From contig JAZQJD010000026.1 in assembly GCA_045541435.1 (NCBI GenBank), positions 164,842-228,841 on the forward strand: a stretch of DNA of 64,000 bases, read 5' to 3'. The notes under the pieces are model-generated. The model searched no databases. It was not told the origin of the DNA and saw nothing but the letters and a program-made list of their open reading frames with translations. Below are positions 2,832-57,400 of this stretch, piece after piece. A program made the position numbers and the translations under genes. Positions within the stretch are counted from its first letter, which is position 1; the number at the start of each line of letters is the position of its first letter. Source of the DNA: Acutalibacteraceae bacterium. GTDB lineage: Bacteria; Bacillota; Clostridia; Oscillospirales; Acutalibacteraceae.

Positions 2832-4238
2832 TTGACTGTGACTGACCTTAATAAAATTGCCGAGGATATTATAGACCAAGGGAAAAAAGCAGTCTGCCGT
2901 GAAATCCCACCTTTTATAAGAGCAATAAATGCTTTGACTTTTCAACCATCAGAAAACGAGTACAACTACACAAACGGTAATATTTTTTACTATTCTCCGG
3001 AAGATATATGCAACAAATATAAAGCTAATAAAAACAGTATTGCAAGACTGTTAATACATTCATTATTGCATTGTGCTTTGCTTCATATTTACAACATAGA
3101 TTTCAAAAACAAAAAGCTTTGGGATTTTGCTTGCGATATATGCGTTGAAAAAATTATTAATGATGCAAAACTCACCTGCTCTGAAACAGAAAAATCTGCA
3201 ACTCAGAACAACATAATAAAAAAACTTTCAGACAAAATAAAGAATTTCACCGCTGAAAATATATACTACTATCTTATAACGGAATTCAAGTCAACCAATG
3301 ATTCGGAGCTATACACAGACCTGTTTTATGCCGACAATCACAACAGCTGGTATAAAAATTCACTTTTCGGTATATATGATGACAATGAAACCATTGAAGT
3401 GGAAGCTCGTTCAATTTACCAAAAAGAAGATGACAGAAGCGGTGAATCCCAAAGCAACGGAAAAACCTTAAGTAAGTTTTCAGACTCCAAGACAGAAAAC
3501 GCTGAGGATGCTTGGCGGGAAATCACAAAGCAAATACTCCGTGATGCAGATATTTTTCCATCTCAAATGGGAACAAATGCAGGCAACATTCTTCAAAATC
3601 TTGAAGCTGTAACCCGAGAAGAATATGATTATTCCGAATTATTGAAAAATTTCATTAAGGCTGATGAAGCTCTTGAAATTAATGACGATGAATTCGACTA
3701 TATTTATTACACATACGGACTTAAGCTTTACGAAAACATACCTTTAATCGAACCGCTTGAATATTCGGAAAGCGGAAAAATCAAGAAGCTTGTTATCGCA
3801 ATCGACACCTCAGGCTCTGTAATGGGTGAAATTGTTGAGGGATTTATAAGAAAAACATATTCAATACTCAACACCACTGATTTTTTCAGAAGCAATTTTG
3901 AAATACATATTATTCAGTGCGATTCCGTTATACAAAATATAGCCGTTATGAAATCCACGGCAGAACTTGAAGATTATATGAAAAACCTTATTTTGCAGGG
4001 CTTTGGCGGTACGGACTTCACGCCGGTTTTCCAATATGTTGATGAGCTTTATGAAAGCTCATCTGAAAAAGAATTAAACGGACTCATCTACTTTACCGAT
4101 GGTGACGGTATTTACCCCGAAAAAACACCACAATACAAAAATGTTTTTGTAATTCACGATAACGGCTTCGACAAAAGTCAGATACCTGTATGGGCAACAC
4201 CTTTATATATTGATAAAAACAAATTAATAGCTTTATAA
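2832..4238 (+). CDS. DUF2201-type protein: N-terminal putative metallopeptidase-like domain plus C-terminal VWA-like domain
   Basis: HSLLHCALLH motif in the N-terminal part. MIDAS-like DTSGS (LVIAIDTSGSVMG) in the C-terminal part. TTG start with GGGGG RBS. Confidence 0.65.
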   Translation: MTVTDLNKIAEDIIDQGKKAVCREIPPFIRAINALTFQPSENEYNYTNGNIFYYSPEDICNKYKANKNSIARLLIHSLLHCALLHIYNIDFKNKKLWDFACDICVEKIINDAKLTCSETEKSATQNNIIKKLSDKIKNFTAENIYYYLITEFKSTNDSELYTDLFYADNHNSWYKNSLFGIYDDNETIEVEARSIYQKEDDRSGESQSNGKTLSKFSDSKTENAEDAWREITKQILRDADIFPSQMGTNAGNILQNLEAVTREEYDYSELLKNFIKADEALEINDDEFDYIYYTYGLKLYENIPLIEPLEYSESGKIKKLVIAIDTSGSVMGEIVEGFIRKTYSILNTTDFFRSNFEIHIIQCDSVIQNIAVMKSTAELEDYMKNLILQGFGGTDFTPVFQYVDELYESSSEKELNGLIYFTDGDGIYPEKTPQYKNVFVIHDNGFDKSQIPVWATPLYIDKNKLIAL

Positions 4239-4256
4239 ACTGAAAGGGAATCTATT

Positions 4257-5507
4257 TTGCAATCCGCAGATAAAACATTAAGAATCTTTTTACCTGTAAT
4301 AAAAACAGATAAATATGCCTTCAATTCACAAATTGAAGACGTAGAGATGCTTCATACCGTAAAAGCAGTAAAAAGCTCTGCATTCTGCAACTGTTCCTCA
4401 TTAAAGAACATTAAATTTTCCGAAAAGCTTACAGAAATACAGAATTTCGCTTTTTTGAACTGCTCTTCATTGGAAAATGTTTTGCTCCCCTCTTCAGTAA
4501 AAAGCTTAGGTGAAGGAGTTTTCAAAAGCTGTACAAACCTAAAAAAAATCCAATTACCCAAAAATTTAAAAGAACTCCCCGCTAACTTTTTTGAAAACTG
4601 CAGAGGGCTTGAAACTATAATTTTACCCGAAGGTCTTGAAAGTATCGGGGAAGAATGCTTCAACGGATGCATTAATTTAAAAGAAATTGTTTTACCTAAA
4701 TCATTAAAATCAATAAAAAAGAAAGCATTTAAGCGTTGCAAACGCCTTGAATCCATTGTTTTTCCCAAAGGTCTGAAATATATCGGTGATATGGCTTTTG
4801 AGGGGTGTAACGCTCTTACAAACATAGTTTTCAAAGGGTCTCCGGAAAATATCGGAGCATCTGCATTTCCCGAAACTCCGTGCGTTTTGCCGAATGTAAC
4901 CGGAACGATGTATTCTTCCAGCTTTATGCAAAAAAGCGAATACGGATTATGCCCGACAGTTACTGTTCCAAAAGATATAAAGAACTTGTGCTTAGGTTTT
5001 GAAAATACACTTACCTACAAGCAAACCTGCGAAAACAAAACCTGCTACAACCACATTCTTTCTTTAGAAAAATATAACGGACGGCTTTTTATAAGTGAAA
5101 ATTTTTATTCATACAATGACAGAACTGATGCACTTATAAAAAACGGCGAGTTCGATTTTATTAAATATGATTCTCAATTTGATAAATCAGAAGAAAAGGA
5201 AAAGCCTATTATTGCTGCTTTCAGACTTTCCTACCCAATTAAACTTCAAGAAAAAACGAAAGCAATTTATCATAACCATTTATTACAAACAGCAGAATAC
5301 GCTGCAATTTTTGCAACAGAAAAAAACGAAGAAAAGGTCTTAAAATATCTGCTGGATAGCTTTGATTTAGAGTCAGAATTTTGTTCATTCTTATATGAAA
5401 AAGCCTCAAAAAACAGCTTTTTAAATTTACAACAGATTTTATCACAAAAGAAGAAAAAAACAGGCTTTGAAGAAATTGAATTTTTATATAATGAAATTTT
5501 AGGGTGA
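4257..5507 (+). CDS. Cytosolic leucine-rich-repeat (BspA-type LRR) protein
   Basis: Repeated ~23-aa LRR units (C.sL..I.lP..L..IG..AF..C..L). No signal peptide. TTG start. Overlaps the next gene by 4 nt. Confidence 0.55.
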   Translation: MQSADKTLRIFLPVIKTDKYAFNSQIEDVEMLHTVKAVKSSAFCNCSSLKNIKFSEKLTEIQNFAFLNCSSLENVLLPSSVKSLGEGVFKSCTNLKKIQLPKNLKELPANFFENCRGLETIILPEGLESIGEECFNGCINLKEIVLPKSLKSIKKKAFKRCKRLESIVFPKGLKYIGDMAFEGCNALTNIVFKGSPENIGASAFPETPCVLPNVTGTMYSSSFMQKSEYGLCPTVTVPKDIKNLCLGFENTLTYKQTCENKTCYNHILSLEKYNGRLFISENFYSYNDRTDALIKNGEFDFIKYDSQFDKSEEKEKPIIAAFRLSYPIKLQEKTKAIYHNHLLQTAEYAAIFATEKNEEKVLKYLLDSFDLESEFCSFLYEKASKNSFLNLQQILSQKKKKTGFEEIEFLYNEILG

Positions 5508-6814
5508 AATTTATGAATATAAAAGAAGCAACAATGCACATTAAAAACACCGTTATTGCATACCTGGAAAAAAATGAGGACGGCTCATTTTTCATTCCCG
5601 TTGAAAAACAGCGTCCCGTTTTCCTTTACGGCCCTCCCGGTATAGGTAAAACTGCGGTTATGGAGCAAATTGCAAACGAACTTAATATAGGTATTGTTTC
5701 ATATTCCATGACCCATCACACAAGGCAGAGTGCAATCGGTCTTCCCTTTATTGCAAAGAAAAGCTTTGACAAAAAAGAATACAGCGTTTCCGAATACACA
5801 ATGAGTGAAATTCTTGCATCTGTTTATGACTACATTGAAGAAACAGGCAAAAAGGAAGGTATTTTATTTCTTGATGAAATCAACTGCGTTTCAGAAACTC
5901 TTGCTCCGTCAATGTTAAGATTCCTGCAGTATAAAACCTTCGGCTCTCACGAGGTTCCGAAGGGCTGGATTGTTGTTACCGCAGGTAACCCACCCGAATA
6001 CAATAAATCTGTAAGAGAATACGATATTGCAACTCTTGACAGAATTAAGAAAATCGATGTTGAAGCAAGCTATGATGTCTGGAAAGAATACGCCGTAAAC
6101 AACAATGTTCACCCTGCAATAGTTGCTTTTTTAGATATTAAAAAGGATTGTTTTTATTCTATTGAAAATACCCCGGCAGGAAAAAAATTTGTTACTGCTC
6201 GTGGTTGGGAGGATTTATCAAGAATTATGTGCCTTTATGAGAAGAAAAGTCTCATAATTGATGCTTCTTTGATTGAACAATATATTCAATCCCCCTCTAT
6301 TGCTCAGGATTTTTCAAGCTATTACTCCGCCTTCAAAAAGCTTAAGGATGTTTTTGATGCTGAAAAAATTCTTAGCGGTTGTTTTGACAATGCTGTTATT
6401 GAAGAAATCAAAAATTTAAGCATTTCGGAAAAATTAGGTTTAATTAATATATTAAGCGACTACATAACACTTGAAGCTAAAGCTGTTATCGCTAAAAGCA
6501 ACTCAATAAAAGAAGCACTTAAGCTTTTAAAAGATAAAGAAGCAACTGAAGATAAAAAAGCAAGTGTAAAAGCAGATATCGAACAGCTTAAAGACGAAAC
6601 AAAAAAGCTTCAAGAAAAGCTTTCAAATGTTGTTGAGTTTATGAAATCTGCATTCGGAAATTCTCCCGAAACTGAAATTTTCATTTCAAATATTTCTTTA
6701 AATAAATCTTCCGCAACATTTCTAATGTCTTTCGGCTGCGAAAGCTTTGCAAGGCTTTCCGACAGAAGCGAATATGAGAAAAAGATAATTGAAGAACTTG
6801 ATGCTCTGATATAA
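5504..6814 (+). CDS. AAA (AAA_5/MoxR-like) ATPase with a C-terminal coiled-coil extension
   Basis: Walker A LYGPPGIGKT and Walker B ILFLDEIN. Start codon overlaps the LRR gene stop. Followed by a hairpin terminator at 6820-6850. Confidence 0.7.
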   Translation: MKFMNIKEATMHIKNTVIAYLEKNEDGSFFIPVEKQRPVFLYGPPGIGKTAVMEQIANELNIGIVSYSMTHHTRQSAIGLPFIAKKSFDKKEYSVSEYTMSEILASVYDYIEETGKKEGILFLDEINCVSETLAPSMLRFLQYKTFGSHEVPKGWIVVTAGNPPEYNKSVREYDIATLDRIKKIDVEASYDVWKEYAVNNNVHPAIVAFLDIKKDCFYSIENTPAGKKFVTARGWEDLSRIMCLYEKKSLIIDASLIEQYIQSPSIAQDFSSYYSAFKKLKDVFDAEKILSGCFDNAVIEEIKNLSISEKLGLINILSDYITLEAKAVIAKSNSIKEALKLLKDKEATEDKKASVKADIEQLKDETKKLQEKLSNVVEFMKSAFGNSPETEIFISNISLNKSSATFLMSFGCESFARLSDRSEYEKKIIEELDALI

Positions 6815-6852
6815 AGTCAGCACCCCGAACCAAATTGATTCGGGGTGTTGTT

Positions 6853-7548
6853 TTATGCCGCAATAGGTTCTGTTACGTATTCATTCAATTCTTCATCATA
6901 ATACTCTTCATACACTTCATAGTCTTCATACACTTCATAGTCTTCGTAATTATACTCATATCGTGAGTTATCCCATTCATTATTGTTATATTTTTCAATA
7001 ACCTCGTCAACAGGCATTCCGTTAATATATACGTTAACTACTTTAAACCTATTTTTATAAATCTTGAATACTACATAAGCCTGAGTTCCAGGACCTTCGC
7101 AAATACCGTCTTGTATATTTTCTTTTTCGTTTATTTTATTGTATAACTCATAGTAATCATATTCATACTGTGCTTTTGTAACTTCACTTTTATATTTAAA
7201 ACACCAATCCTCTTGGTACCAGCTATACATTCTGTCACGACTTATATACAAAGCTGTATCAGATATTGTTTCTGTTTCTTCACAGGTGTAAAATCCATCA
7301 CCACTATCATAAAAAATAAGATAGTCTTTTCCACCAAAATCACTCATTTTATCCCGAAGTTCTGAAATCTGGAACTCCACCTGATGTTCATCATAGTCTG
7401 CGTAATCAAGAAGCATTTTTATTTCCTGCCCTTTCTCTTCCAATTCCTTATTCTTGAAGGTTTCATACCCCCAGACACCTAAAGGAATTATAAACTGAAC
7501 TGCAAGTATTATTGAAAGAATTATTGTACCTTTTTTATTTTTCATCAT
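6853..7548 (-). CDS. Hypothetical single-pass membrane protein with an acidic Tyr/Glu-rich repeat tail
   Basis: N-terminal TM after MMKNKKG. C-terminal EDYEVYEDYEVYEEYYDEE is encoded by a 21-bp tandem DNA repeat near 6895-6940. RBS GGTGGA. Overlaps the stop of the upstream gene. Confidence 0.5.
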   Translation of the reverse strand: MMKNKKGTIILSIILAVQFIIPLGVWGYETFKNKELEEKGQEIKMLLDYADYDEHQVEFQISELRDKMSDFGGKDYLIFYDSGDGFYTCEETETISDTALYISRDRMYSWYQEDWCFKYKSEVTKAQYEYDYYELYNKINEKENIQDGICEGPGTQAYVVFKIYKNRFKVVNVYINGMPVDEVIEKYNNNEWDNSRYEYNYEDYEVYEDYEVYEEYYDEELNEYVTEPIAA

Positions 7549-8989
7549 CTTCCACCGCCTTTTCCAATTCAAGCTGTTCTTTTTTGATTTTCCTTGAGAT
7601 ACAGAAGTTTGCACCGAAAAGAGATGCACCGCTGATTAAGAACATAAGGCCAACCGTTACCATATTCCAATCGAAAGCAGAAAGCACGAAGAACATCAAA
7701 ACAAGTAGCATTATAAGACCAACATTAAGGTTAAAGTAGTTCTTTTCACTTGCGCCTTTGATGAGCATTACAAGACCTTCTGCAAATGTGATTGCGAAAA
7801 GGATAAGACCTATCCACACTACTGATTCAAATGCCGGGCTGAATAAAGCAATTACCGCACCTGCTGCACCAAGATAGCAGAAAATTGACTGATATTTATT
7901 TTTATCAAGAGATTTTTCGCCGATGATAAAGCCGATTGCAAGAGTTGCAACTGTTAAAATTATTGTTATAATGCTTTCGGGTTTAATTAAGTTTAACCAT
8001 CTGTTGATGTCGCTGTATGAATAAATAACATCATCCTGCAAATGAAAATAGGTTGAAGCTATTGAGCCAAACGCAGTTCCTAAAATACCTATTGGGTAAA
8101 ACGGCATTGACCAACCGTCGTTTTTATTCAATGCGTAAATACAAACTGCAAGTGCCAATGGCAAGGAGAAATAACCCCAATCAAGAATAAACAAGCTTAT
8201 TGCAATTACCATAGCACAAGCGGCTATTACTGAAATCCATGAAGAATATTCATATCTTGCATCTGCCACATTCTTTCTGTTGAAGAAAGTGAAAAGAAGT
8301 CCTGCACCAACTAAAGTAACCATTAAAACAGTTGTTAAAATTTCATTTCTTGTATACTCCATAACACCTATTGAGCCTGCTATTGAAAAGCCGTAGTAGA
8401 ACACCAAGGGTGAAACGACCTTAAAGAAGCACAATATCGGAAGAATCAGAACCGCATCAATAAGTAAGCACATTAAAGCACCTAAATGAAGCTCTAAAAC
8501 CATACTTAAAAGACCAACTGTTGCGGTAACGCCTGCGGACCATAAAATTGATGCGCCCTCTCTCCAGGCGATGTTATCAAATTTTTTCTTATAGGTATAA
8601 ACTGCACCCGCCTGCCCTAAAAGCAATGGCAAGAATGAAACGGTTGCTTTCATAATATTAGGAAATTTGTCCCAAAGGGCAACCATAAGAATTATTACGC
8701 CTGCACCGACGAACAAGGAGCCTAAAATAGAGAAAACCATAAACAAGGTTTTACTTGTTCTGACGCTTTCCTCTAATTGAGTGTTACGTTTTTCACCATA
8801 TAGCAGCTCTTCAACCTCAACACCGAAAAGCTCAGCGATTTTCTGAATCATATCCAAATCCGGTTGAGTTCTGTTATTTTCCCAGGATGAAACTGCCTGG
8901 CGGGAAACAAAGAGCTTTTGCGCCAGCTCCTCTTGACTCATGTTCTCTAACATTCGTAAGCGTTTGATGTTTTTTGAAATTTTAGTCAT
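7535..8989 (-). CDS. XRE-family HTH regulator fused to a polytopic membrane domain
   Basis: N-terminal HTH_3 (LRMLENMSQEELAQKLFVSRQAVSSWENNRTQP) followed by about 10 predicted TM helices. GAGGTG RBS favours the start at MTKISK. Confidence 0.65.
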   Translation of the reverse strand: MTKISKNIKRLRMLENMSQEELAQKLFVSRQAVSSWENNRTQPDLDMIQKIAELFGVEVEELLYGEKRNTQLEESVRTSKTLFMVFSILGSLFVGAGVIILMVALWDKFPNIMKATVSFLPLLLGQAGAVYTYKKKFDNIAWREGASILWSAGVTATVGLLSMVLELHLGALMCLLIDAVLILPILCFFKVVSPLVFYYGFSIAGSIGVMEYTRNEILTTVLMVTLVGAGLLFTFFNRKNVADARYEYSSWISVIAACAMVIAISLFILDWGYFSLPLALAVCIYALNKNDGWSMPFYPIGILGTAFGSIASTYFHLQDDVIYSYSDINRWLNLIKPESIITIILTVATLAIGFIIGEKSLDKNKYQSIFCYLGAAGAVIALFSPAFESVVWIGLILFAITFAEGLVMLIKGASEKNYFNLNVGLIMLLVLMFFVLSAFDWNMVTVGLMFLISGASLFGANFCISRKIKKEQLELEKAVEDDEK

Positions 8990-9204
8990 TTTCATCACCT
9001 CTAAAACCATATTTACATTTTATTTTGAAAATGTCATCATTTTTTTGAAAAACAGTTCGGCTACATTTTGTTGCGCCTTTATTCTGCAAGGCTTTTAGCC
9101 TATCCGTTTTTCTTGACTTTAGTATAACTCCGAAAAATAAAAAAACTGTCCGAATGTAACTTTCGGGCAGTTTTTTGTAACTTTTGGGTATTTTTCTATA
9201 ATTT

Positions 9205-25463: not shown

Positions 25464-28400
25464 TTAGATAATTCCGTCTTCCTTCAAGAATTTGATAAGA
25501 CGCTCTGTATTCTTTCCGTCACGGAAATTAACAAGCTTTGAATACTTATTTTTCTGTTCTTCAGTCTGAAGATTGTTATAGTTTTTCTCAATAATCTCAC
25601 CGAGATTTTCATCGTTATAGGCAAAATCGCCGTAAACGTTTTCTTCATTAAGCATAAGAACAGTTGATGGACCATACTGCATCATACAATAATCTTTTTC
25701 TTCCCAATAGAATATTACTCTTGCACCACGATAGAAGGCATCATATGCTATTGAAGAATAGTCTGTAATAAGAACGGCGGTATCTTTAAGAATATCGTCA
25801 TATCTTGCATCAAGAACTATTTTCTTGGTAAGAGTTTCAGAAAGCTTACTGAGTTCATTCACAATAAGCGGATGAGGAAGAATTATAACCTTTTCTTTAA
25901 GCTGCTCGGGAACTGCATCATAAAGCTTCATAAGCATTTTAAAGTACGGAGTCTGAGTGAAGTCTGTTCTTGCTTCATTGATTTCCCACGGTCTCCAGGT
26001 AGGCATAATAACAATTTTGTCTGCATTTTCGTTATGAGTGTTACGGTCAAATTTAGGAAGACCGGTTATATAAATATCCTCGTCGTAGTGTCTTCCTAAT
26101 GTTGTAAAATGGTCAGCCTCTGCCTGAGATGAAACGACAACTCTGTATTTTCCGTTTAAATTTTTTCTCTTAAACATTTTTCGTGACTCGGAATTTAGAG
26201 AAACCATATACATAACACCATGCTGCAAGAATACATAGTTCAGATTTTTACTTGCAATTTTCTTCAAGGCAAGAAGATTGAAGGTTTTAAGATCAATCGA
26301 GTGGGCGATTGCCTCTGTACCTATGAATGTTTTGGATTTAAAGAAATACAAATAGTGCTTAAACGAATATTTATAAATAATATTGCTCAAGTATCTCTCC
26401 GGAATTCTGTCAAAAAACTCATAATCCTTAGTTACGATGAAATATGCATTTTTATAGCCCGAATCAATAAGGTTTTCAAAAAGCACGCTCGCACTTTCTT
26501 CATATTTTGAAGAGTTTTTCTCATAAAGAAGAACAAGCTTCTTTGCTTTTTCAGAATGCCATAAAAGTGACAGCCCATAAGCCACAACCTGCTTTACTCT
26601 GTGAGAAATTTTATCAGTAACATTAACTGAACGAACATAAATATTAAGTCTTTGCTTCTGAGATTGTCTGAAAATTGCAACAGTTGAGCTTTCTTTATCA
26701 ATATTCATCGGCCCACGAAGGCCAAGGAACATTTTAAGCAATGACCAATATATAATATGGCATTGAACAATAAAACCGTATTGGTCCTTATATTCAAGTG
26801 CAACCATATTTGTTGCAGGAAGATTTATAACATCCGACATAGGAACGCTGAAAGAATAAATACCAAAATGAGATTTTTTTGCTTTCTTTTTGGAAGCAAA
26901 ATACTTTGGCTTATAACGATTTTCGCCAACATAAATAACTGTATCTTTTAAAGCTACGGGTTTTGGAGTTGTAAGCCGGAACAAGCTGATGCATTTAAGC
27001 TTCCCTGCTTTATTATAATACAAGGGAAGGATATTCTTCATTCGGGATTTTTTCCTTAAACTCGCATGTGCCTCACCGGTTTCATTGTTCTCAACATAAG
27101 CCTTATTTTCTGCTTCAAAAAGGTCAACAGTTACAAAATTGTTTATCTTTTCGAACTTATAAACGAAATCATTAATTTTCTTCGTTTTGTTTGCAACTGC
27201 GAAGAAATCACCATGCTTTACATTTTTCTTTTCACCTTTAAGTTTATTGAGAAGTCCCGCAATAATTACATTACCGCAAGAAAAATCAACTACCATATTA
27301 GGCTCGAAGGAATAGAACATCCTCTTGGCTTCTCTTTCAAAGAAAGCTGAAAGAGTTTCACCGCAAACAACTTTACCAAATAATCTGAAAACAAGGAATA
27401 CAAAAAACTCCTTAAATGTGAATTGGAATGCATTTAATAATCCATAAAGTGTTATAGCAGGGTCAATAGCCTCTATTGCATCCTTTTTCTTCTGAGAAAG
27501 ATTACGACGATACGCAACAATATACTTATACTCCGGATTTTGCTCTTTAAAAATCCTCAAGCCATCAAAATGGGCATCGGGAAGCACACCTGCATAAACG
27601 AGGCAGATTTTCTTGTTTTCGGGATTTGTGGTTTCAATTTTATAAACTTCACTCTCCCCTGTTACAAGCATTTCAAAGAGTTTTTCGCAGCTATCTATAC
27701 TGCCGTTGGGACAATATTCATCCAAAAATTCTTGAGAAACCTCATAAGGCTTCTGCATTTCTTTGACTACATCTTCAACCTTTTCCACGATGGCAAAAGG
27801 CAAATCCTCAAAGGGCATATAGGTTCCGCGGGTGCTGAGATATTTTTCTTTATCATAAGCAAAAAGAATAACTTTTTTACCTGTAATAGCAAAATCGAAA
27901 AAAACGCTTGAATAGTCTGTAACAAGTCCGTCACAGGCATTCAAAATTTCATAGGTATCATAATCGCCGCTGAAATACTCAACATGCTTATATTTATCGC
28001 AATTAATTTCTGAAGACAAAAGAAAATGCAAATTCACAAGAAGAACGGAAGAATCATCCAGCTTTTCATCAAATTCTCTGAGAATTTCCTCTGTTTCCTT
28101 GATGCTTGCCGCCTTTTGAGTATCGTTTGCCGCATCTCTCCATGTGGGCATATATGCATAGATTTTCTTACCTTCGTAACCAAGCTTTTTCTTCATTTCC
28201 ACGCCTGCTTGAGCATCATAGAAAATATAGTTTCTCGGGTAATTGGCAATAAGACTTTTACCTTTGTAAATATCACGAAGATAATAGTCATCCATAAACA
28301 CGTTTCTTGTAAACTCGTTCGGAAAAAGTGCATAGTCACTCATAAGATAGTTTTTCTGAACATTACCGATTGAGCTAAGGCTTGATTTATTGGCTTTACC

Positions 28401-28817
28401 TAAAGTTTTCAAGGGTGTTCCATGCCATGTGTTAAAGAAAATCTGCTCTTCCCTTTTATTAAAATAAGGCGGAAATGAGTTATCTGTCATAACATATTTT
28501 GCTGTTGCAAGATGTTTAAGATATTGCTTTGAGTTTCTAACAGAGAGAATAACATCCTTAAAGCCATAAAACGCCATACGTTTTTTAGCCTTTTCGATGG
28601 TATCTTCCGTTACAACAAAGGCACAGGTATACTCAGCCCATCTGGGATTTGTTTTCAGCTCTTTAAGCATAGAAAACATATTACCGTTAATATTTGAGCC
28701 TTGTCCACCTTCTAAAAGAACAAGCTTTTCATCAATGGGCAATTTGCAATATTCAATATATGCGGGCTCACAATTATTCTTAAAGCTTTTTAATCTTTTG
28801 ATAATCTTTTTTACCAT
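25464..28817 (-). CDS. Tandem-domain CDP-glycerol glycerophosphotransferase (two TagF-like domains)
   Basis: Two TagF-type DYSS motif regions (LVTDYSSVFFDF and LITDYSSIAYDAF) in a 1117-aa ORF. Confidence 0.75.
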   Translation of the reverse strand: MVKKIIKRLKSFKNNCEPAYIEYCKLPIDEKLVLLEGGQGSNINGNMFSMLKELKTNPRWAEYTCAFVVTEDTIEKAKKRMAFYGFKDVILSVRNSKQYLKHLATAKYVMTDNSFPPYFNKREEQIFFNTWHGTPLKTLGKANKSSLSSIGNVQKNYLMSDYALFPNEFTRNVFMDDYYLRDIYKGKSLIANYPRNYIFYDAQAGVEMKKKLGYEGKKIYAYMPTWRDAANDTQKAASIKETEEILREFDEKLDDSSVLLVNLHFLLSSEINCDKYKHVEYFSGDYDTYEILNACDGLVTDYSSVFFDFAITGKKVILFAYDKEKYLSTRGTYMPFEDLPFAIVEKVEDVVKEMQKPYEVSQEFLDEYCPNGSIDSCEKLFEMLVTGESEVYKIETTNPENKKICLVYAGVLPDAHFDGLRIFKEQNPEYKYIVAYRRNLSQKKKDAIEAIDPAITLYGLLNAFQFTFKEFFVFLVFRLFGKVVCGETLSAFFEREAKRMFYSFEPNMVVDFSCGNVIIAGLLNKLKGEKKNVKHGDFFAVANKTKKINDFVYKFEKINNFVTVDLFEAENKAYVENNETGEAHASLRKKSRMKNILPLYYNKAGKLKCISLFRLTTPKPVALKDTVIYVGENRYKPKYFASKKKAKKSHFGIYSFSVPMSDVINLPATNMVALEYKDQYGFIVQCHIIYWSLLKMFLGLRGPMNIDKESSTVAIFRQSQKQRLNIYVRSVNVTDKISHRVKQVVAYGLSLLWHSEKAKKLVLLYEKNSSKYEESASVLFENLIDSGYKNAYFIVTKDYEFFDRIPERYLSNIIYKYSFKHYLYFFKSKTFIGTEAIAHSIDLKTFNLLALKKIASKNLNYVFLQHGVMYMVSLNSESRKMFKRKNLNGKYRVVVSSQAEADHFTTLGRHYDEDIYITGLPKFDRNTHNENADKIVIMPTWRPWEINEARTDFTQTPYFKMLMKLYDAVPEQLKEKVIILPHPLIVNELSKLSETLTKKIVLDARYDDILKDTAVLITDYSSIAYDAFYRGARVIFYWEEKDYCMMQYGPSTVLMLNEENVYGDFAYNDENLGEIIEKNYNNLQTEEQKNKYSKLVNFRDGKNTERLIKFLKEDGII

Positions 28818-47886: not shown

Positions 47887-50784
47887 TTATTTATCAAACA
47901 ACAACACTTTATAATTACTTGAAACTAATGATTCACTCTCTTCAAAAACGAAGCTTTGAACATTTTCTTTTTCATAATGCGGAACAAGTATGAAATACAA
48001 TTTATTTTCAATTTGATAAGTTTGAGGCGTTAAATCGTGGGGCTTTGATGAGGAAATAAATTTATTGTTTTTCTCTTGTAAATAAGTAACGCCTGAATTT
48101 GCATTAGCTACATATTCCACATATTTTTCTTCATCCATAGTTAAAAGATAATATTCCGGTTGAGGTTCGGTTTTATCTATGTTCTTGGTTTGAAGAATAG
48201 AAAGCTCTGTTTTTTCAATAATCTCATCTATTGTCTGCATCCTGCCGTCATTTTTAGGATTATATTCAGAGAGTAAAACTATTTCTTCGTTAATCACATT
48301 GAAAAAAGCGGTATTATCGAAAGTAATAATAATATTTCCTTCAATCCAGAAATCCTCATTTGCTTTTGTTCCGTTATATACCCAGACATTAAATATGGCA
48401 TCTTCAATATTGCCTGTTGGTGTATATCTGATTCTGAAATTCTTGACCAATATATTTTCAAAATCAGTATTTAATGTAAATTTAATGTTGGATAAAATTT
48501 CATCAAATTGAGTCTTATCTGCAGGAATATCATTTTTTGAAATTTCATCATAAGTGCTGTTATCAGTTTTTATTGCAAGATATACTGTTTCTCTGTTGTT
48601 TTGGGTCTCTTCAGTTTCTCCCCATCTATCAGCTTTACAATATATTTTTCCATCCTGCACTAATTCAATTCTTTCAATTTCATAGTTTTGATTGGATGAA
48701 TATATACCGTTTGCATAAACTGTAACCCTAAAATCACTGTTTAAGCCTATGCTTTTCAATCTGCCGTTGCTTGTATAAAACAGTTTCTCATCATGAACAA
48801 CAAATTGTGGTGTTTTTGTTCCTATTCTATCAACTAAAACAGGTCCATCCGAGTACGTTTTATCATTATAGCACAGCCCATAAAACTGTAATTCACTTGT
48901 AGCATCTATAATGGCATAATAATAGTTTCCATAAATATGCTTTAAATCACCCGTATTTTCATAATATAAATTCAAGCCTAAAAGCGAACTGATATTTATA
49001 GCATCATATTCACTTTCATCACCGATATAACTTGATAAAACATGCTGAAATGGTTTAACAGTAATTTCTTCATTAGCAAGATTATATGATGAAAGTATCA
49101 GCTTCATTTCCTCAATACTTGCAAACTTATTAAAGTGTAATATTTTTTGAGGATCTATTGATTTTGAAGTAAGGTAACATTCAAAATTATCTTGACTTAG
49201 CTTTGTAACATAAACTGTAACGCCGTTTTCTGTATTCAAGCCAAAGAAATGAGGATACTTTTCTTGTAATTTTTCAATTTCTTTTTCTGTGCTTTCATCT
49301 GAAACGATAATCGAGGTAGGTCCGTCTGCTCCGCCGATTATGCCTATTGAGGAGCTGCTGCCTTTATTTTGAGATTTTTCATAAACAACCTCAAGCACAT
49401 CAAATTCAACTTCAATTTTGGTGTCTCGTCTATTCTTAAACCATTTTTTCGGAACAGAGAATACAAATTCTGTACCCGGACCTTTTGAATGGCAATATGA
49501 AGAATAGTGGCTGAAATCACCTGTTGCATCATATACATCTATTTTTTCGCCTAATTCCAGACCACCTTCAAATTGTTTTGCTTCTAACACATAAATCGTA
49601 CCCTCATTAGGTATATCTTTGTAAGTTACATCAAAAGTCAAGGTAAACATATCTTCATGACTGTACACTTCTTTAAAATTAAATTCTACAAAATCGTTAT
49701 AAGTATCCCGACCCTTAACTTTATAAACTCCATCCTGTTCAAACATTTCATCAGTTAACAGTCCCGTAACAAAAAAGATAGAAAAATCCTTTTCATTTGC
49801 ACTAATAACATCAAAGCCATCTTCATTTAAAATCCTATTCACCTTATCGTTTACAGGGTTGCTGATAAAGCAAATTGCTAAAACAAAGCTTATTATTACC
49901 GCAATTAAAACAACCCAGAATGCAGGTTTTTTGTAGTTTAAAACGGACTTGATTCTGTCTTTAACTCCAACCTCACCGAATGCAACAGGACACGCCATAA
50001 TCATTCTTCTGTTTGCACTGCAATTTAATAATGCAGTAGAATAAAGCTTTTTAAAGTCTGTATCGTAATTTTTAATTACTTTTTCATCACAAGCAGATTC
50101 AATATCTCTGCAAAGGAAAATATACCACAGCCATATCGCAGGGTTAAACCAATAAATTGACAGAATCAAAAATGAAATTGGTTTTATGATATGGTCTTTA
50201 CGCTTCAAATGTGATTTTTCATGCTCCAAAACAAATTCCAAATCTTCTTCATTCAAGCCTGACGGAACATAGATTTTAGGTTTAATTATTCCTAAAATAA
50301 AGGGTGTTTCAATATTATCGCAATAATAGATATTATCTTTATAAAGAACCGATACAGATACCTTTCTCTTTAAAATCACAAAAGAAACAAGGCTGTAAAG
50401 TACCATCAGAATTAAACCTATAACCCATATATATGATGCTATGCCAACCGCAACCATTAAGGGATTCACACTATAGCTCGGGTAAGGTGCAACAGCATTT
50501 GAAATTACAGGATTCACAACGTTATTAACAATATCAACGCCCGTATCTATTTGCGGATTGCTTGAAACGGTAATATTAGTGGGAATCGTTTCTGCTGACG
50601 GAACAAGGCTTAAAACACTTTCAAAGCTAAAAGGAAGACAAAGCCTTAAACCAACAACACCCCATAACAGACAATTTACCCATTTAGGAACCTTCTTTAA
50701 AAGTGGTCGCAGAATGGTAAATGCCAAGACTGCCCAAGTAGCAGTAATGCTCATATTAACAAGGGTTAAAAATAAATCATTCAT
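47887..50784 (-). CDS. BlaR1/MecR1-like M56 peptidase signal transducer with a ~650-aa C-terminal sensor domain
   Basis: N-terminal 4-TM M56 domain with the HEKSHLKRKDH zinc motif. A large extracytoplasmic domain of unknown fold follows. Confidence 0.7.
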   Translation of the reverse strand: MNDLFLTLVNMSITATWAVLAFTILRPLLKKVPKWVNCLLWGVVGLRLCLPFSFESVLSLVPSAETIPTNITVSSNPQIDTGVDIVNNVVNPVISNAVAPYPSYSVNPLMVAVGIASYIWVIGLILMVLYSLVSFVILKRKVSVSVLYKDNIYYCDNIETPFILGIIKPKIYVPSGLNEEDLEFVLEHEKSHLKRKDHIIKPISFLILSIYWFNPAIWLWYIFLCRDIESACDEKVIKNYDTDFKKLYSTALLNCSANRRMIMACPVAFGEVGVKDRIKSVLNYKKPAFWVVLIAVIISFVLAICFISNPVNDKVNRILNEDGFDVISANEKDFSIFFVTGLLTDEMFEQDGVYKVKGRDTYNDFVEFNFKEVYSHEDMFTLTFDVTYKDIPNEGTIYVLEAKQFEGGLELGEKIDVYDATGDFSHYSSYCHSKGPGTEFVFSVPKKWFKNRRDTKIEVEFDVLEVVYEKSQNKGSSSSIGIIGGADGPTSIIVSDESTEKEIEKLQEKYPHFFGLNTENGVTVYVTKLSQDNFECYLTSKSIDPQKILHFNKFASIEEMKLILSSYNLANEEITVKPFQHVLSSYIGDESEYDAINISSLLGLNLYYENTGDLKHIYGNYYYAIIDATSELQFYGLCYNDKTYSDGPVLVDRIGTKTPQFVVHDEKLFYTSNGRLKSIGLNSDFRVTVYANGIYSSNQNYEIERIELVQDGKIYCKADRWGETEETQNNRETVYLAIKTDNSTYDEISKNDIPADKTQFDEILSNIKFTLNTDFENILVKNFRIRYTPTGNIEDAIFNVWVYNGTKANEDFWIEGNIIITFDNTAFFNVINEEIVLLSEYNPKNDGRMQTIDEIIEKTELSILQTKNIDKTEPQPEYYLLTMDEEKYVEYVANANSGVTYLQEKNNKFISSSKPHDLTPQTYQIENKLYFILVPHYEKENVQSFVFEESESLVSSNYKVLLFDK

Positions 50785-54497: not shown

Positions 54498-57400
54498 GTG
54501 AAAAAGTTACTTTGTTTTATTTTATGCTTGATTCTTGCTTTTTCAAGTGTATCAGTTTTTGCACAGGCTTATGAGATTAATAACAACTCTCTTTCACCAC
54601 TTGAAGCCTTCACCCAAAAGCTCACCCAACTTACAAAGGAATATAATTCTAACAGTGATATTTCAGTTTTTTCATCGTATACACTTGATGAAAACGAGAT
54701 TGCTCATAATGACTCAACAAAACGTCTGATTGTTAAAGCAAAAGGTAAAATAGACGCTCTTAACGCAGTTGAGCATATTGAGGGCTACAACGATTTACAT
54801 ATTCTTCAATTCGATTCTTATGGTGATATGGAAAGTGCTTTAGCCTTTTACGAAAACTGCGAAAATGTTATTTATGTTCAAGAGGATTGCGTCAACAAAA
54901 CTGCTGAATATGAAATAATTGAAGAAAATGTGCCCTTTACCGAAAACTCAAATAACGAAAACTCCGCTAATGAAGTTACTAATCCTATGCAGGACTGTGC
55001 TGATGCACAAGGCTTTACTGCTTTAAGAAAAAAACTTGCTGATGAGAATAAAGTTTATGAACAAGAAATCACTGTGGCTGTTATTGATACAGGCGTTGAA
55101 GCAGAGCACGAGCTTTTAGCAGGAAGAGTTGAGCCCACGGGCTTTGACTCTATTGATGGTGTTTCCTGCGCTGACAAGGAAGGTCACGGTACACATGTTG
55201 CAGGTATAATAGCTTCAAACACACTTGATAATGTAACAATAAGACCATACAGAGTTTTAAATGAAGATGGTGAGGGTACAGATGCTCAAGTAGTTTTAGG
55301 TATTGAAGTCGCTATAGAAGATGGTGTCGATGTAATAAATATGAGCCTTGGAAGACGGGGCGAAAGTGCTCTTATGGATGAGGCGATAAAGAAGGCAAAT
55401 GATGCAGGCATTGTAGTAGTTGTTGCAGCCGGTAACGAAGGCTTTTGTATGGATGCCATTCCTTGCACTCCCGCTTGTTGTGAAAATGTAATTACTGTTA
55501 CCGCATGTCATAAAAATATGTCTGTTACTATGCCTTTTTCAAACTTCGGTTCAATGTGTGAAACAGGTGCTATAGGTAATAGTGTGAAAAGCTCGTATCT
55601 TAATAATACCTATGCATATTTGTCAGGCACCTCTATGGCAGCACCGTTTGTTGCAGCCGGAGTAACTTACCTGTTGCTTGATAATCCGAATTTGACTTAT
55701 GAAGAGATTGTAGATACTATAGATAAATTTGAGTATAATACTTTTCTGTTCCTTGAATACATTCTTGAAGATGATATTGTACAATTACCCGAACCTGAGT
55801 TTAGTGTTGTGGGTGGTGACTTTACAGAGGAATTTTATTTAGAGCTTACCTGCGAGGATGAAACTGCAACTATTTACTATACTCGTGGTTCTTTTGATAA
55901 ATTCCAGGGACAAATTTATAGCGAACCATTGAAAATAAAATACAACACTACTATTACAGCATATACCGCAAAGCGTGGTGCAAAATCAAGCGAAAAGGTA
56001 ACACAGACATTCACAAGAGCATTTCCGACAGATGAATATATGTATGAAATCACCGAAGATGGAGTAATTACCGAATATCTGGGTCCATGCACCGCTGATG
56101 ATAAGGAGTTAATTATACCTGATACAATTAAAGGGATAACCCCAACAACAATAGGCATTAATGCATTCAAGGGAAAGCAATTTTTTGAATATATTACAGT
56201 ACCGGATACCGTAACCAAACTTGATAGTTGTGCTTTTCAAGGGTGTTACAACCTTAAATTCTTTACAGGTAAAGGTGTAACTGTTGTGGGCAGCGGAGCC
56301 TTTGAAGGATGTTACGACCTAATTGATTTTATAGGTGGCGAACTTGAGGAGATTGGTGGTAACGGTTTTAAAAATTGCGAATCTTTAAGATTTATTGACA
56401 CAAGAAATCTTACAAGAATAGAAGGAGGTGCATTCAGGGAATCAAGTGCAATACAAACACTTGTTTCAGATAAACTTACTTATATCGGTCCTCAAGCTTT
56501 TTACGCAACCGATATAAACACTGTAGAATGTCCCAATGTCACCGAAATAGGTTTGGCGGCTTTTTCAGAATGTGAAAATCTAGAAACTGTATTTATTCCC
56601 AAAGTTACGGAACTCTCCGATGAACTTTTCGGCCCAAATATAAAAGAGGTTTATGCACCTTTAGTTGAACGAATAGGTGCATTCACCTTTGCTTATTCGA
56701 CAAACCTTAAAGAAGTGAATTTTCCTTTGGTAACCTATATATCTTGGAGTGCTTTTAAGGGGTGCGACCAAATAAAATCGTTTGATTTTCCGTTATTAAC
56801 ATATATAGGCGAAGAGGCTTTTAGAGATTGTACTGCACTCGAAAGCATTAACGCCCATTCGGTGACACATCTGGATAATTATGCTTTTATGAATTGTTCT
56901 TCATTAAAAGAGTTTGATTGTTCCTTGGTAACTGACTTTGGTATGAATGTTTTCAAGGGTTGCTCTTCACTTAAGGAGCTTGAGTTCGATTCTAATTTAA
57001 TCATTTATCGGGATACCTTTTATGATGAAATTACTGTAAACAAGGTTATTTTTAATAATCCTAAAAAAATTGTTGCATTTCCCTCCAATGTTCCCGTAGC
57101 TCTGCCGTCATCCCTTACGGATATTGTTGAGGATGACCCTGAAAATGTAATAATTTACGGAACAAAGGGCAGTTACGCCGAGGATTGGGCTTCTGACTAT
57201 GACCAGACTTTTATAGAAATAACTCCTCAGAGTGCAATATTTAATGATATCGAACCTTATTTCTTACCGGGTGATGAACCTCTTTATTTTGATGTGATAG
57301 GCCTTAACAGAACATATCAATGGTATGGTAATAATGAAAAATCCACCTCGAACGGTACTGCTATAAAAGGTGCTACAAACAGTAAATTTTCCCCGGCGGA

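What the first reader, a model, noticed from the sequence alone, without database searches (positions are those of the whole stretch)
2832..6814. Three-gene operon: DUF2201 metallopeptidase-like/VWA protein, cytosolic BspA-type LRR protein and coiled-coil AAA ATPase
The genes are tightly linked (overlapping start and stop codons) and are not flanked by core genes. The first product combines an HSLLHCALLH putative metallopeptidase-like motif with a VWA MIDAS (DTSGS). The third is an AAA_5/MoxR-like ATPase with a ~200-aa C-terminal coiled-coil extension. VWA plus MoxR-type ATPase pairs are chaperone-like machines of largely unknown substrate. An LRR protein without a signal peptide between them is unusual and could be the substrate-recognition or sensor component. 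I do not recognise a described function for this three-part arrangement.
Basis: partly seen in the sequence, partly recalled or inferred. Interest (0 to 1): 0.55.

Follow-up and report, generated by a model that had tools for sequence, protein, structure and literature searches.

The report
MoxR ATPase, VWA partner, cytosolic LRR
A three-gene operon for an ATP-driven remodelling motor, its adaptor protein and a signal-peptide-less leucine-rich-repeat protein turns out to be one lineage's version of an apparently undescribed module found at about 600 places in gut and rumen Clostridia genomes, in which a very conserved motor pair sits next to fast-changing repeat proteins.

Summary
The three genes are real and form one operon: 2838-4238, 4257-5507 and 5513-6814, ending in a strong terminator hairpin.

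- **Gene 1** has a zincin-like N-domain fused to a VWA domain (Pfam DUF2201_N + DUF2201). The MIDAS metal site is intact. The catalytic Glu of HExxH is missing here and in all 70 related locus proteins, so it is probably not a peptidase.
- **Gene 2** has seven 23-residue BspA-type LRR_5 repeats, no signal peptide, and a rare 200-residue C-domain with no structural match.
- **Gene 3** is a very conserved MoxR-like (AAA_5) ATPase.

The LRR gene is not an accidental insertion. Among 81 related loci, 76% of genes lying between the VWA and ATPase genes are LRR_5 genes. That share falls to 0-7% three or more genes away. 66 of 81 loci have a repeat-protein partner within two genes, and 86 of 87 linked LRR proteins lack a clear signal peptide.

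In sister lineages the LRR genes turn over much faster than the core pair. Flanking genes are mostly housekeeping, the module matches no known defence system, and it is nearly absent from phages and plasmids.

Best reading: a ternary MoxR/VWA machine that uses LRR proteins as specificity subunits. This is a new variant of a known kind; its function is untested.

The parts
2838..4238 (+). Gene 1 (D): zincin-like N-domain + VWA protein, 466-468 aa
   Evidence: ORF. Pfam DUF2201_N and DUF2201 both score above their cut-offs. The 466-aa database form is 100% identical. The AF2 model has pLDDT 75.8.
3057..3086 (+). H-x3-H-C-x3-H motif (HSLLHCALLH, aa 76-85): the zincin active-site helix with the catalytic Glu replaced by Ser
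   Evidence: None of the 70 locus homologues has Glu at position 2. Distant DUF2201 proteins from Thermus and Bacillus phage G, and P0360, keep HExxH. The motif lies in predicted helix 68-82.
3666..3776 (+). Highly conserved segment (aa 279-315, EINDDEFDYIYYTYGLKLYENIPLIEPLEY) that is predicted with low confidence; a candidate partner-binding segment
   Evidence: Many invariant residues in alignment A2, yet pLDDT below 50 over 279-315. The binding role is inference.
3783..4235 (+). VWA domain with intact MIDAS (DTSGS at nt 3804-3818; TDG downstream)
4257..5507 (+). Gene 2 (L): cytosolic LRR_5 protein, 416 aa, TTG start with GAAAGGGA ribosome-binding site at 4242-4249
   Evidence: ORF. The 416-aa database form is 100% identical. 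Ribosome-binding site read. No hydrophobic segment.
4401..4883 (+). Seven tandem 23-residue BspA-type LRR_5 repeats (aa 49-209)
   Evidence: Pfam LRR_5, 185.5 bits. Repeat register and per-position entropy.
4893..5504 (+). C-terminal domain of gene 2 (aa 213-416): beta-rich half plus helical half, restricted to a small clade
5513..6814 (+). Gene 3 (A): MoxR-like AAA_5 ATPase, 433 aa. Walker A GPPGIGKT at nt 5630-5653; Walker B ILFLDE at nt 5861-5878; invariant SYSMTHHTRQSAIGLP at nt 5699-5746
   Evidence: Pfam AAA_5 match spans profile positions 1-138 of 139. Nearest annotated relatives are 'MoxR family ATPase' at 25-29% identity. Motifs are invariant in 82 sequences. Start and ribosome-binding site read.
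6380..6811 (+). C-terminal extension of the ATPase (aa 290-433): a variable-length charged stretch (about nt 6485-6637), then a conserved block (nt 6638-6748)
   Evidence: Indel of up to about 60 residues and low conservation in the middle, with conserved FGxSPE...FGCExF at the end. No structure was predicted for it.
6821..6856 (+). Intrinsic terminator hairpin plus U-tract directly after gene 3, shared with the convergent gene
   Evidence: RNA fold -22.6 kcal/mol, z -6.4, 0 of 200 shuffles fold as well. Sequence read.

Best explanation
The operon encodes a three-part cytoplasmic protein-remodelling machine of the MoxR/VWA type.

- **Gene 3** is the ATP-driven motor. It is a MoxR-like AAA_5 ATPase and presumably a hexamer.
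- **Gene 1** is its VWA partner. It uses an intact MIDAS metal site to grip a protein ligand. Its N-terminal zincin-like domain has lost the catalytic glutamate, so it more likely binds than cuts.
- **Gene 2**, the signal-peptide-less LRR_5 protein, is the dedicated third subunit. In this lineage it is a fixed partner with its own C-terminal domain. In sister lineages it is replaced by one to seven fast-changing LRR_5 or ankyrin-like-plus-LRR_5 proteins. I read these repeat proteins as interchangeable target-recognition subunits that present a bound protein to the VWA/ATPase core for ATP-dependent remodelling or release.

**Shown:** domain identities, the operon, the conserved linkage, the absence of a signal peptide on the linked LRR proteins, and the loss of the catalytic Glu.

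**Inferred:** physical contacts between the three proteins, the direction of action (adaptor rather than client), and the target.
For: **Domains and motifs**
- MIDAS DxSGS/TDG is conserved in 67 of 70 homologues.
- Walker A, Walker B and the stretch between them are invariant in 82 ATPases. The nearest annotated relatives are MoxR family ATPases, and in Thermus such an ATPase sits next to a DUF2201 protein.

**Linkage**
- The identical triad occurs with at least three different sets of flanking genes.
- In 81 loci, LRR_5 genes make up 38 of 50 genes between D and A. The share is 26% at +/-1 gene, 11% at +/-2, 4-7% at 3-5 genes and 0% at 6 or more.
- 66 of 81 loci have an LRR_5 or ankyrin-like partner within two genes. 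D precedes A in 67 of 68 loci.

**A distinct class of LRR proteins**
- Only 1 of 87 linked LRR proteins has a clear signal peptide.
- Both unlinked LRR_5 proteins in this window have signal peptides and extracellular domains.

**Conserved core, variable partners**
- L046 versus L049: ATPase 97% and VWA protein 94% identical, but LRR genes 33-94%.
- A fragmented partner gene lies between D and A in L036.

**Precedent**
- MoxR-vWA pairs are described as chaperone-cochaperone pairs with a system-specific third component (PMC8195603).
- The metallopeptidase-vWA fusion has been noted before (PMC7824862).
- Inactive peptidase domains fused to vWA are common in ternary systems (PMC7159879).
Against: - There is no direct evidence that the three proteins touch. 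No fusions of the LRR protein with either core protein were seen; P0364-P0366 are internal duplications, not fusions.
- 15 of 81 loci show no partner nearby, although about five of these are cut by contig ends.
- Three homologues (L055, L060, L071) have a degenerate MIDAS yet keep an LRR gene between D and A. MIDAS-mediated binding therefore cannot be universal.
- In the window's own clade the LRR gene evolves at about the rate of the VWA gene. The concave-face repeat positions are neither more nor less variable than other variable positions (2.17 vs 1.94 bits, p = 0.22). The LRR surface therefore gives no signal about a ligand.
- LRR_5 genes are common in these genomes (three in this window alone), so some adjacency is expected by chance.
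- Adaptor versus client cannot be separated with sequence data.
Confidence: 0.5

Rival explanations
1. It is a conflict (anti-phage or anti-invader) surveillance system. The cytosolic LRR_5 proteins would be diversifying receptors for foreign proteins. The MoxR/VWA pair would set the threshold or transmit the signal, as proposed for MoxR-vWA ternary systems, with the degenerate zincin domain in the effector or decoy position.
For: - LRR genes turn over far faster than the core and expand to arrays of up to seven paralogues that are 22-61% identical to each other.
- Partner-gene fragments in L036 suggest birth-and-death evolution.
- A complete Septu system (PtuA E 2.4e-173, PtuB E 1.6e-69) is nested between D and the LRR gene in L025.
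- Published MoxR-vWA ternary systems have a variable third sensing component and often carry inactive peptidase domains on the vWA protein.
Against: - No recognisable effector is present (no nuclease, TIR or pore-former; the peptidase lacks its Glu).
- There is no PADLOC match beyond the P-loop.
- The 127 neighbouring genes are mostly housekeeping, with only a handful of defence-model hits.
- The locus is syntenic and vertically stable in the window's clade.
- The ATPase is conserved to a degree more typical of core machinery.
- Only 4 hits in 2.9 million viral contigs, and no close plasmid homologue.
- The bpMoxR model scores below its cut-off (20.7 vs 27), and the architecture differs from VMAP/iSTAND systems.
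Confidence: 0.22
2. The LRR_5 proteins are the clients, not adaptors. The MoxR/VWA pair would fold, assemble or disassemble these repeat proteins, for example into a cytoplasmic or non-classically exported structure. This is how other MoxR/VWA pairs act on a protein encoded next to them.
For: - From established knowledge of CbbQ/CbbO-Rubisco and NorQ/NorD-NorB, MoxR/VWA pairs are often encoded beside their client. NorD VWA is among the structural matches.
- A MoxR-vWA pair has been proposed to assemble virion structures in jumbo phages and in an archaeal virus (PMC7824862).
- The linked LRR proteins form a special signal-peptide-less class.
Against: - Known clients are metal-centre enzymes or structural proteins, not generic binding scaffolds.
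- Many different LRR_5 and ankyrin-like proteins share one nearly invariant core, which is easier to explain if they are exchangeable adaptors.
- No structural or membrane gene is conserved with the module.
Confidence: 0.2
3. The LRR gene is an unrelated insertion between two genes of a DUF2201/AAA pair, with no functional link.
For: - LRR_5 genes are abundant in these genomes; there are three in this 64-kb window.
- About a fifth of related loci have the pair without an adjacent LRR gene.
Against: - The same triad is kept with different flanking genes at 40-83% LRR protein identity.
- Enrichment is steep: 76% of genes inside the pair are LRR_5 genes, against 0-7% three or more genes away.
- The linked genes share strand and have tight spacing with their own ribosome-binding sites.
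- The linked LRR proteins are a distinct cytosolic class.
- The gene is under purifying selection, dN/dS 0.12-0.19.
Confidence: 0.03
4. Gene 1 is an active metalloprotease that processes the LRR protein or its cargo, as its 'predicted metal-dependent peptidase' annotation suggests.
For: - Pfam DUF2201_N match.
- Three conserved His and a conserved downstream Asp/Glu (H76, H80, H85, D102, E106) could still hold a metal.
- Some sources name homologues 'predicted metal-dependent peptidase'.
Against: The general-base Glu of HExxH is replaced by Ser, Thr, Ala or an aliphatic residue in all 70 homologues from the loci. Distant family members keep it.
Confidence: 0.04

Closest known systems
MoxR AAA+ ATPase with a vWA cochaperone carrying an N-terminal metallopeptidase domain (Pfam DUF2201_N + DUF2201; noted in group 2.2 jumbo phages, PMC7824862)
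   Same: The two-protein core has the same architecture. Bacillus phage G gp576 and a Thermus plasmid protein align over the whole length of gene 1. In Thermus the partner gene is annotated as a MoxR family ATPase.
   Different: - Those relatives keep HExxH; this lineage has lost the Glu.
- This module is chromosomal in Clostridia, not phage-borne.
- It has a linked LRR_5 third component, and its ATPase has an extra C-terminal extension.
- The proposed role of the phage version (virion assembly) was never tested and does not transfer.
MoxR-vWA ternary conflict systems (VMAP, iSTAND, TERNS3; PMC7159879, PMC8195603)
   Same: A MoxR/vWA core plus a system-specific third component with recognition domains. 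Peptidase domains fused to the vWA protein are frequently inactive.
   Different: - The third component here is an LRR_5 protein, not VMAP, iSTAND or TERNS3.
- The extra domain is N-terminal, not C-terminal, to the vWA domain.
- No effector-associated or Death-like adaptor domains were found.
- The hosts are gut and rumen Clostridia rather than the multicellular cyanobacteria, actinobacteria and others named in those papers.
- The bpMoxR model scores below threshold.
CbbQ/CbbO, NorQ/NorD, BchI/BchD and midasin (Rea1) MIDAS systems
   Different: There is no sequence-level relationship beyond the domain folds. Those systems act on defined enzymes or ribosome assembly factors; no such client is encoded here.
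BspA-type LRR_5 surface proteins
   Same: The same repeat family, at a strong Pfam score.
   Different: BspA-type proteins are secreted or surface-anchored, like the two other LRR_5 proteins in this window. Gene 2 and 86 of 87 linked relatives lack a clear signal peptide.
NLR/STAND immune receptors (NTPase + LRR sensor)
   Same: An NTPase combined with cytosolic, fast-changing LRR modules. This is an analogy of logic only.
   Different: The ATPase is a MoxR-type AAA+, not a STAND NTPase (nSTAND3 19.6 bits against a cut-off of 27.2). The LRR and the ATPase are on separate polypeptides.

Membership tests
Pfam DUF2201_N / DUF2201 (COG3864-type VWA proteins) | Both Pfam models score above their gathering thresholds | tested here: met
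   36.4 bits (cut-off 23.2) and 47.9 bits (cut-off 26.4).
Zincin metallopeptidase (catalytically competent) | HExxH with the general-base Glu | tested here: not met
   The motif is HSLLH here. None of the 70 locus homologues has Glu, whereas Thermus, phage G and P0360 homologues have HExxH.
VWA domain with functional MIDAS | VWA fold and the DxSxS...T...D metal-site residues | tested here: met
MoxR-like AAA+ ATPase (Pfam AAA_5) | AAA_5 model above threshold over its full length; Walker A and B; DEIN...NP...LDR pattern | tested here: met
   AAA_5 36.4 bits (cut-off 22), covering profile positions 1-138 of 139. Motifs are invariant. tblastn gives 25-29% identity to annotated MoxR family ATPases, E 1e-19 to 1e-20.
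MoxR-like AAA+ ATPase (Pfam AAA_5) | Hexameric ring and ATP hydrolysis | not testable with these tools
   This needs biochemistry or multimer modelling.
LRR_5 (BspA-type leucine-rich repeat) | Tandem repeats of about 23 residues matching the LRR_5 model | tested here: met
   185.5 bits. Seven repeats are in register at aa 49-209.
BspA-like surface adhesins | Signal peptide or surface anchoring | tested here: not met
   No hydrophobic segment in gene 2. Only 1 of 87 linked relatives has a clear signal peptide. This rests on a hydropathy heuristic, not a trained predictor.
MoxR-vWA ternary conflict systems (VMAP/iSTAND/TERNS3) | A third component of VMAP, iSTAND or TERNS3 type, with effector domains C-terminal to the vWA domain | tested here: not met
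   The third gene is LRR_5 only. The extra domain of gene 1 is N-terminal. bpMoxR scores 20.7, below 27. There are no models for VMAP or TERNS3 in the libraries used, so their absence is judged from Pfam only.
Known anti-phage defence systems (PADLOC-DB v2) | Match to any system's protein models | tested here: not met
   Genes 1 and 2 have no hits. Gene 3 has only P-loop-length matches to IetA (residues 33-66).
Defence-island resident | Neighbours enriched in defence genes across relatives | tested here: not met
   Of 127 neighbours within two genes, only a few match defence models: Septu in one locus, and mad2/3/8, WYL and MTase in one to three each. The rest are housekeeping. No formal background rate was computed.

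The most novel reading that the evidence does not exclude
The module is a split, NLR-like cytosolic surveillance system of Clostridia. In this reading, arrays of rapidly diversifying, signal-peptide-less LRR_5 receptors capture foreign (phage or mobile-element) proteins and hand them to an almost invariant MoxR/VWA engine. The engine's pseudo-peptidase domain would act as the docking or decoy site. That would make LRR-based intracellular recognition a bacterial trait with a new kind of motor.
Probability: 0.2. Interest if true: 0.85.

Novelty: new variant of a known kind. Interest (0 to 1): 0.6.

Why it matters
MoxR/VWA pairs are widespread, but few have a known client or adaptor. This module offers a case where the partner is encoded next door and can be swapped by nature: one near-invariant motor pair with dozens of different cytosolic LRR or ankyrin-like proteins. 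It occurs at about 600 places or more in a collection holding one genome per species, mostly gut and rumen Clostridia.

It also defines a class of intracellular BspA-type LRR proteins, a repeat family usually treated as surface adhesins. If the LRR proteins are recognition subunits, the system could show how a MoxR machine is targeted. If they recognise foreign proteins, it would be an LRR-based intracellular sensing system in bacteria.

The consistent loss of the catalytic Glu also corrects the routine annotation 'predicted metal-dependent peptidase' for this lineage.

Tried and rejected
- **Exact-sequence look-ups failed.** Looking up the window ATPase and its 100% identical database form returned nothing. 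Homologues were used instead.
- **PDB sequence searches.** Only P-loop matches for the ATPase profile and none for gene 1.
- **Zincin fold of gene 1 not confirmed.** The fold search of gene 1 was dominated by its VWA half, so the zincin fold of the N-domain rests on the Pfam match and the predicted helix/strand order, not on a structural match.
- **Profile comparison of the C-domain with the ankyrin-like module of other partner proteins.** P = 0.011, probability 3.7%, so inconclusive.
- **Test for a special pattern on the LRR concave face.** No difference, p = 0.22.
- **Fusion (Rosetta-stone) idea.** The 870-910-aa proteins containing the C-domain are internal duplications, not fusions with the ATPase.
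- **Horizontal transfer by composition.** The operon's GC (0.34) lies within the window's range of 0.32-0.42.
- **Promoter and terminator scan.** Not above shuffled expectation, and it missed the terminator that direct reading and folding found.
- **Literature searches.** Searches for DUF2201, COG3864/TM0930 and LRR_5 found no functional study.

Full report
**What is in the window**

Three same-strand ORFs lie at 2832-4238, 4257-5507 and 5504-6814. Database forms and ribosome-binding sites place the starts as follows.
- Gene 1 starts at GTG 2838; the 466-aa form is 100% identical.
- Gene 2 starts at TTG 4257, with GAAAGGGA 8 nt upstream.
- Gene 3 starts at ATG 5513, with AGGGTG upstream. All database relatives begin MNIKEAT.

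The genes are therefore separated by 18 and 5 nt rather than overlapping.

Directly after gene 3 there is a hairpin of -22.6 kcal/mol (z -6.4) followed by a U-tract. A 100-nt spacer separates gene 1 from the upstream GH5 gene. The three genes thus form one operon.

Against orthologues, dN/dS is 0.10-0.14 for gene 1, 0.12-0.19 for gene 2 and 0.07-0.13 for gene 3. The operon's GC content is not unusual for the window. The organism is an uncultured gut or rumen member of the Oscillospiraceae/Acutalibacteraceae group, judging from the record titles of the closest loci.

**Gene 1 (called D here)**

Pfam gives DUF2201_N ('putative metallopeptidase') and DUF2201 ('VWA-like'), both above threshold.

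An AlphaFold2 model (pLDDT 75.8) has three parts:
- a well-predicted N-domain (aa 1-175);
- a low-confidence acidic linker;
- a C-terminal alpha/beta domain.

The motif HSLLHCALLH sits in the predicted helix 68-82. It keeps three His but has Ser where HExxH has the catalytic Glu. None of the 70 homologues taken from related loci has Glu there. Distant DUF2201 proteins do keep HExxH: one on a Thermus plasmid next to a MoxR family ATPase, Bacillus phage G gp576, and one metagenomic homologue, P0360. The loss is therefore derived and lineage-wide, and the domain is most likely non-catalytic.

A strongly conserved segment (aa 279-315) is predicted with low confidence. I take it as a candidate partner-binding segment. 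This is inference.

**Gene 2 (called L here)**

Residues 49-209 are seven 23-residue LRR_5 repeats. There is no signal peptide or other hydrophobic segment.

Residues 213-416 form a separate domain.
- An exhaustive search of 1.84 billion representative proteins found it in only 14 clusters, always after an LRR region.
- Its model (pLDDT 79.2) has a beta-rich half and a helical half.

**Gene 3 (called A here)**

The Pfam AAA_5 match covers the whole model. Walker A (GPPGIGKT), Walker B (ILFLDE) and the DEIN...GNPPEYN...LDR pattern are invariant. The nearest annotated relatives are 'MoxR family ATPase' proteins at 25-29% identity over residues 36-290.

Across 82 homologues from several Clostridia families, residues 31-180 have 83-90% column identity. 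This includes an invariant SYSMTHHTRQSAIGLP between the Walker motifs.

Beyond about residue 290 there is a charged, poorly conserved stretch with indels of up to about 60 residues, followed by a conserved terminal block.

**Is the LRR gene part of the system?**

The same D-L-A triad, with the same LRR + C-domain protein, occurs with at least three unrelated sets of flanking genes:
- metallophosphatase/GH5 on one side and an HTH-DUF2157 gene on the other;
- nucleoside metabolism genes and a cytidylate-kinase-like gene;
- GH92 and Rnf genes.

LRR protein identity falls as low as 40% among these triads.

The best 80 were fetched. I called ORFs in these loci and classified them with phmmer and jackhmmer. 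The share of genes that are LRR_5, by position relative to the D/A pair, is:

| Position | LRR_5 genes |
|---|---|
| between D and A | 38 of 50 (76%) |
| one gene away | 26% |
| two genes away | 11% |
| three to five genes away | 4-7% |
| six or more genes away | 0% |

The few non-LRR genes between D and A include:
- a DUF6273 protein, a domain that is fused to LRR_5 elsewhere;
- an ankyrin-like protein related to the N-domains of other partner proteins;
- one nested Septu system.

Counting LRR_5 and the ankyrin-like module together, 66 of 81 loci have a partner within two genes, and several of the rest are cut by contig ends. D precedes A in 67 of 68 loci. Partners lie between D and A in 36 loci, after the pair in 21 and before it in 12.

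Only 1 of 87 linked LRR proteins has a clear signal peptide. By contrast, the window's two unlinked LRR_5 proteins both have signal peptides and extracellular domains. One carries subtilase S8 and dockerin domains and the other a GH85_C domain. The linked proteins are therefore a distinct cytosolic class.

**Conserved core, variable partners**

In the window's clade the LRR gene is single-copy and diverges at about the rate of D. For example, one comparison gives A 87%, D 76-77% and L 78-79% identity.

In sister clades the partners change much faster than the core.
- L046 versus L049: A 97%, D 94%, but LRR genes 33%, 94%, 49%, 50% and 83%.
- L035 versus L039: A 87%, D 72%, LRR genes 26-28%.
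- Arrays hold up to seven paralogues that are 22-61% identical to each other.
- L036 holds fragments of a partner gene between D and A.

**Context**

No PADLOC model matches genes 1 or 2. Gene 3 matches only over its P-loop.

The 127 neighbours within two genes of the module in about 60 diverse loci are mostly housekeeping genes: tRNA synthetases, FBPase, topoisomerase IV and transporters. Only a few match defence models. Septu occurs in one locus, and mad2/3/8, WYL and MTase in one to three loci each.

Only 4 of 2.9 million viral contigs carry the ATPase. No plasmid carries a close homologue.

**Literature**

- A MoxR-vWA pair whose vWA protein has an N-terminal metallopeptidase domain was noted in jumbo phages and proposed to act in virion assembly (PMC7824862).
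- MoxR-vWA ternary conflict systems have a variable third component and frequently carry inactive peptidase domains on the vWA protein (PMC7159879 and PMC8195603).
- I found nothing linking LRR_5 proteins to this pair.

**Interpretation**

The best-supported reading is a ternary MoxR/VWA remodelling machine in which cytosolic LRR_5 proteins are the third, specificity-giving subunit. Here that subunit is a fixed partner with its own C-domain. I put confidence at about 0.5.

The main alternatives are:
- the LRR proteins are clients rather than adaptors (0.2);
- the whole module is a conflict or surveillance system with LRR receptors (0.22).

The second alternative fits the partner turnover. It lacks an effector, a defence-island context and mobility.

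An unrelated insertion (0.03) and an active protease (0.04) are largely excluded.

The finding is a new variant of a known kind. The core pair is known as a type. The LRR_5 linkage, the cytosolic LRR class and the lineage-wide loss of the catalytic Glu appear to be new.

Noticed in passing
window 54498-57905 (+) and 57971-60382 (-): Two convergent secreted LRR_5 proteins with clear signal peptides. One is 1135 aa with subtilase S8 + CHB_HEX_C_1 + LRR_5 + dockerin. The other is 803 aa with LRR_5 + GH85_C. They served as the contrast to the cytosolic gene 2.
   Followed up: partly
window 6853-7629 (-) and 7535-9010 (-): An HTH_3 + DUF2157 membrane protein (491 aa) is followed by a family-less 258-aa protein with one hydrophobic segment and an acidic Tyr/Glu-rich tail. 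The pair is convergent with the operon and shares its terminator. The same pair sits next to the triad in relatives L001 and L002, so it is a conserved neighbour of unknown relation.
   Followed up: partly
L025:2780-4729: A complete Septu defence system (PtuA E 2.4e-173, PtuB E 1.6e-69) is nested between the VWA gene and the LRR and ATPase genes of a related module in a Lachnospiraceae MAG. The same MAG carries a second copy of the module (L081).
   Followed up: partly
L091 (Thermus oshimai plasmid pTHEOS01, 62046-70726): A distant MoxR ATPase + DUF2201 pair with intact HExxH is flanked by a leucine-rich-repeat-variant (LRV) protein, a 746-aa protein with no Pfam match and a UvrD-like helicase. 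Repeat-protein neighbours may therefore be a wider theme for this pair.
   Followed up: no
L021-L084, N-termini of many partner proteins (e.g. L030:938-2863): A second class of partner has a helical N-domain of about 400 residues that looks ankyrin-like, placed ahead of the LRR_5 repeats. Part of this domain (about 100-140 residues) recurs inside many other linked proteins and in some LRR-less neighbours (L026, L043, L056, L058, L075).
   Followed up: partly
L022:5039-6460, L084:5736-8384 and two further neighbours: DUF6273 is the most frequent Pfam family among non-LRR neighbours (4 of 127). In L084 it is fused to LRR_5. DUF4132 appears in two neighbours.
   Followed up: no
L055, L060, L071 (VWA genes): Three homologues have a degenerate MIDAS motif but keep an LRR gene between the VWA and ATPase genes. 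This argues against a universal MIDAS-dependent contact.
   Followed up: no
L001/L011: 12256-13485 (-): A second signal-peptide-less LRR_5 protein (409 aa) lies about 3 kb downstream of the triad on the other strand, between 589-aa and 206-aa proteins with no Pfam match.
   Followed up: no
window 25464-28817 (-) and 47887-50784 (-): A 1117-aa protein with two CDP-glycerol glycerophosphotransferase domains (teichoic-acid type) and a 965-aa BlaR1-like M56 peptidase protein.
   Followed up: no
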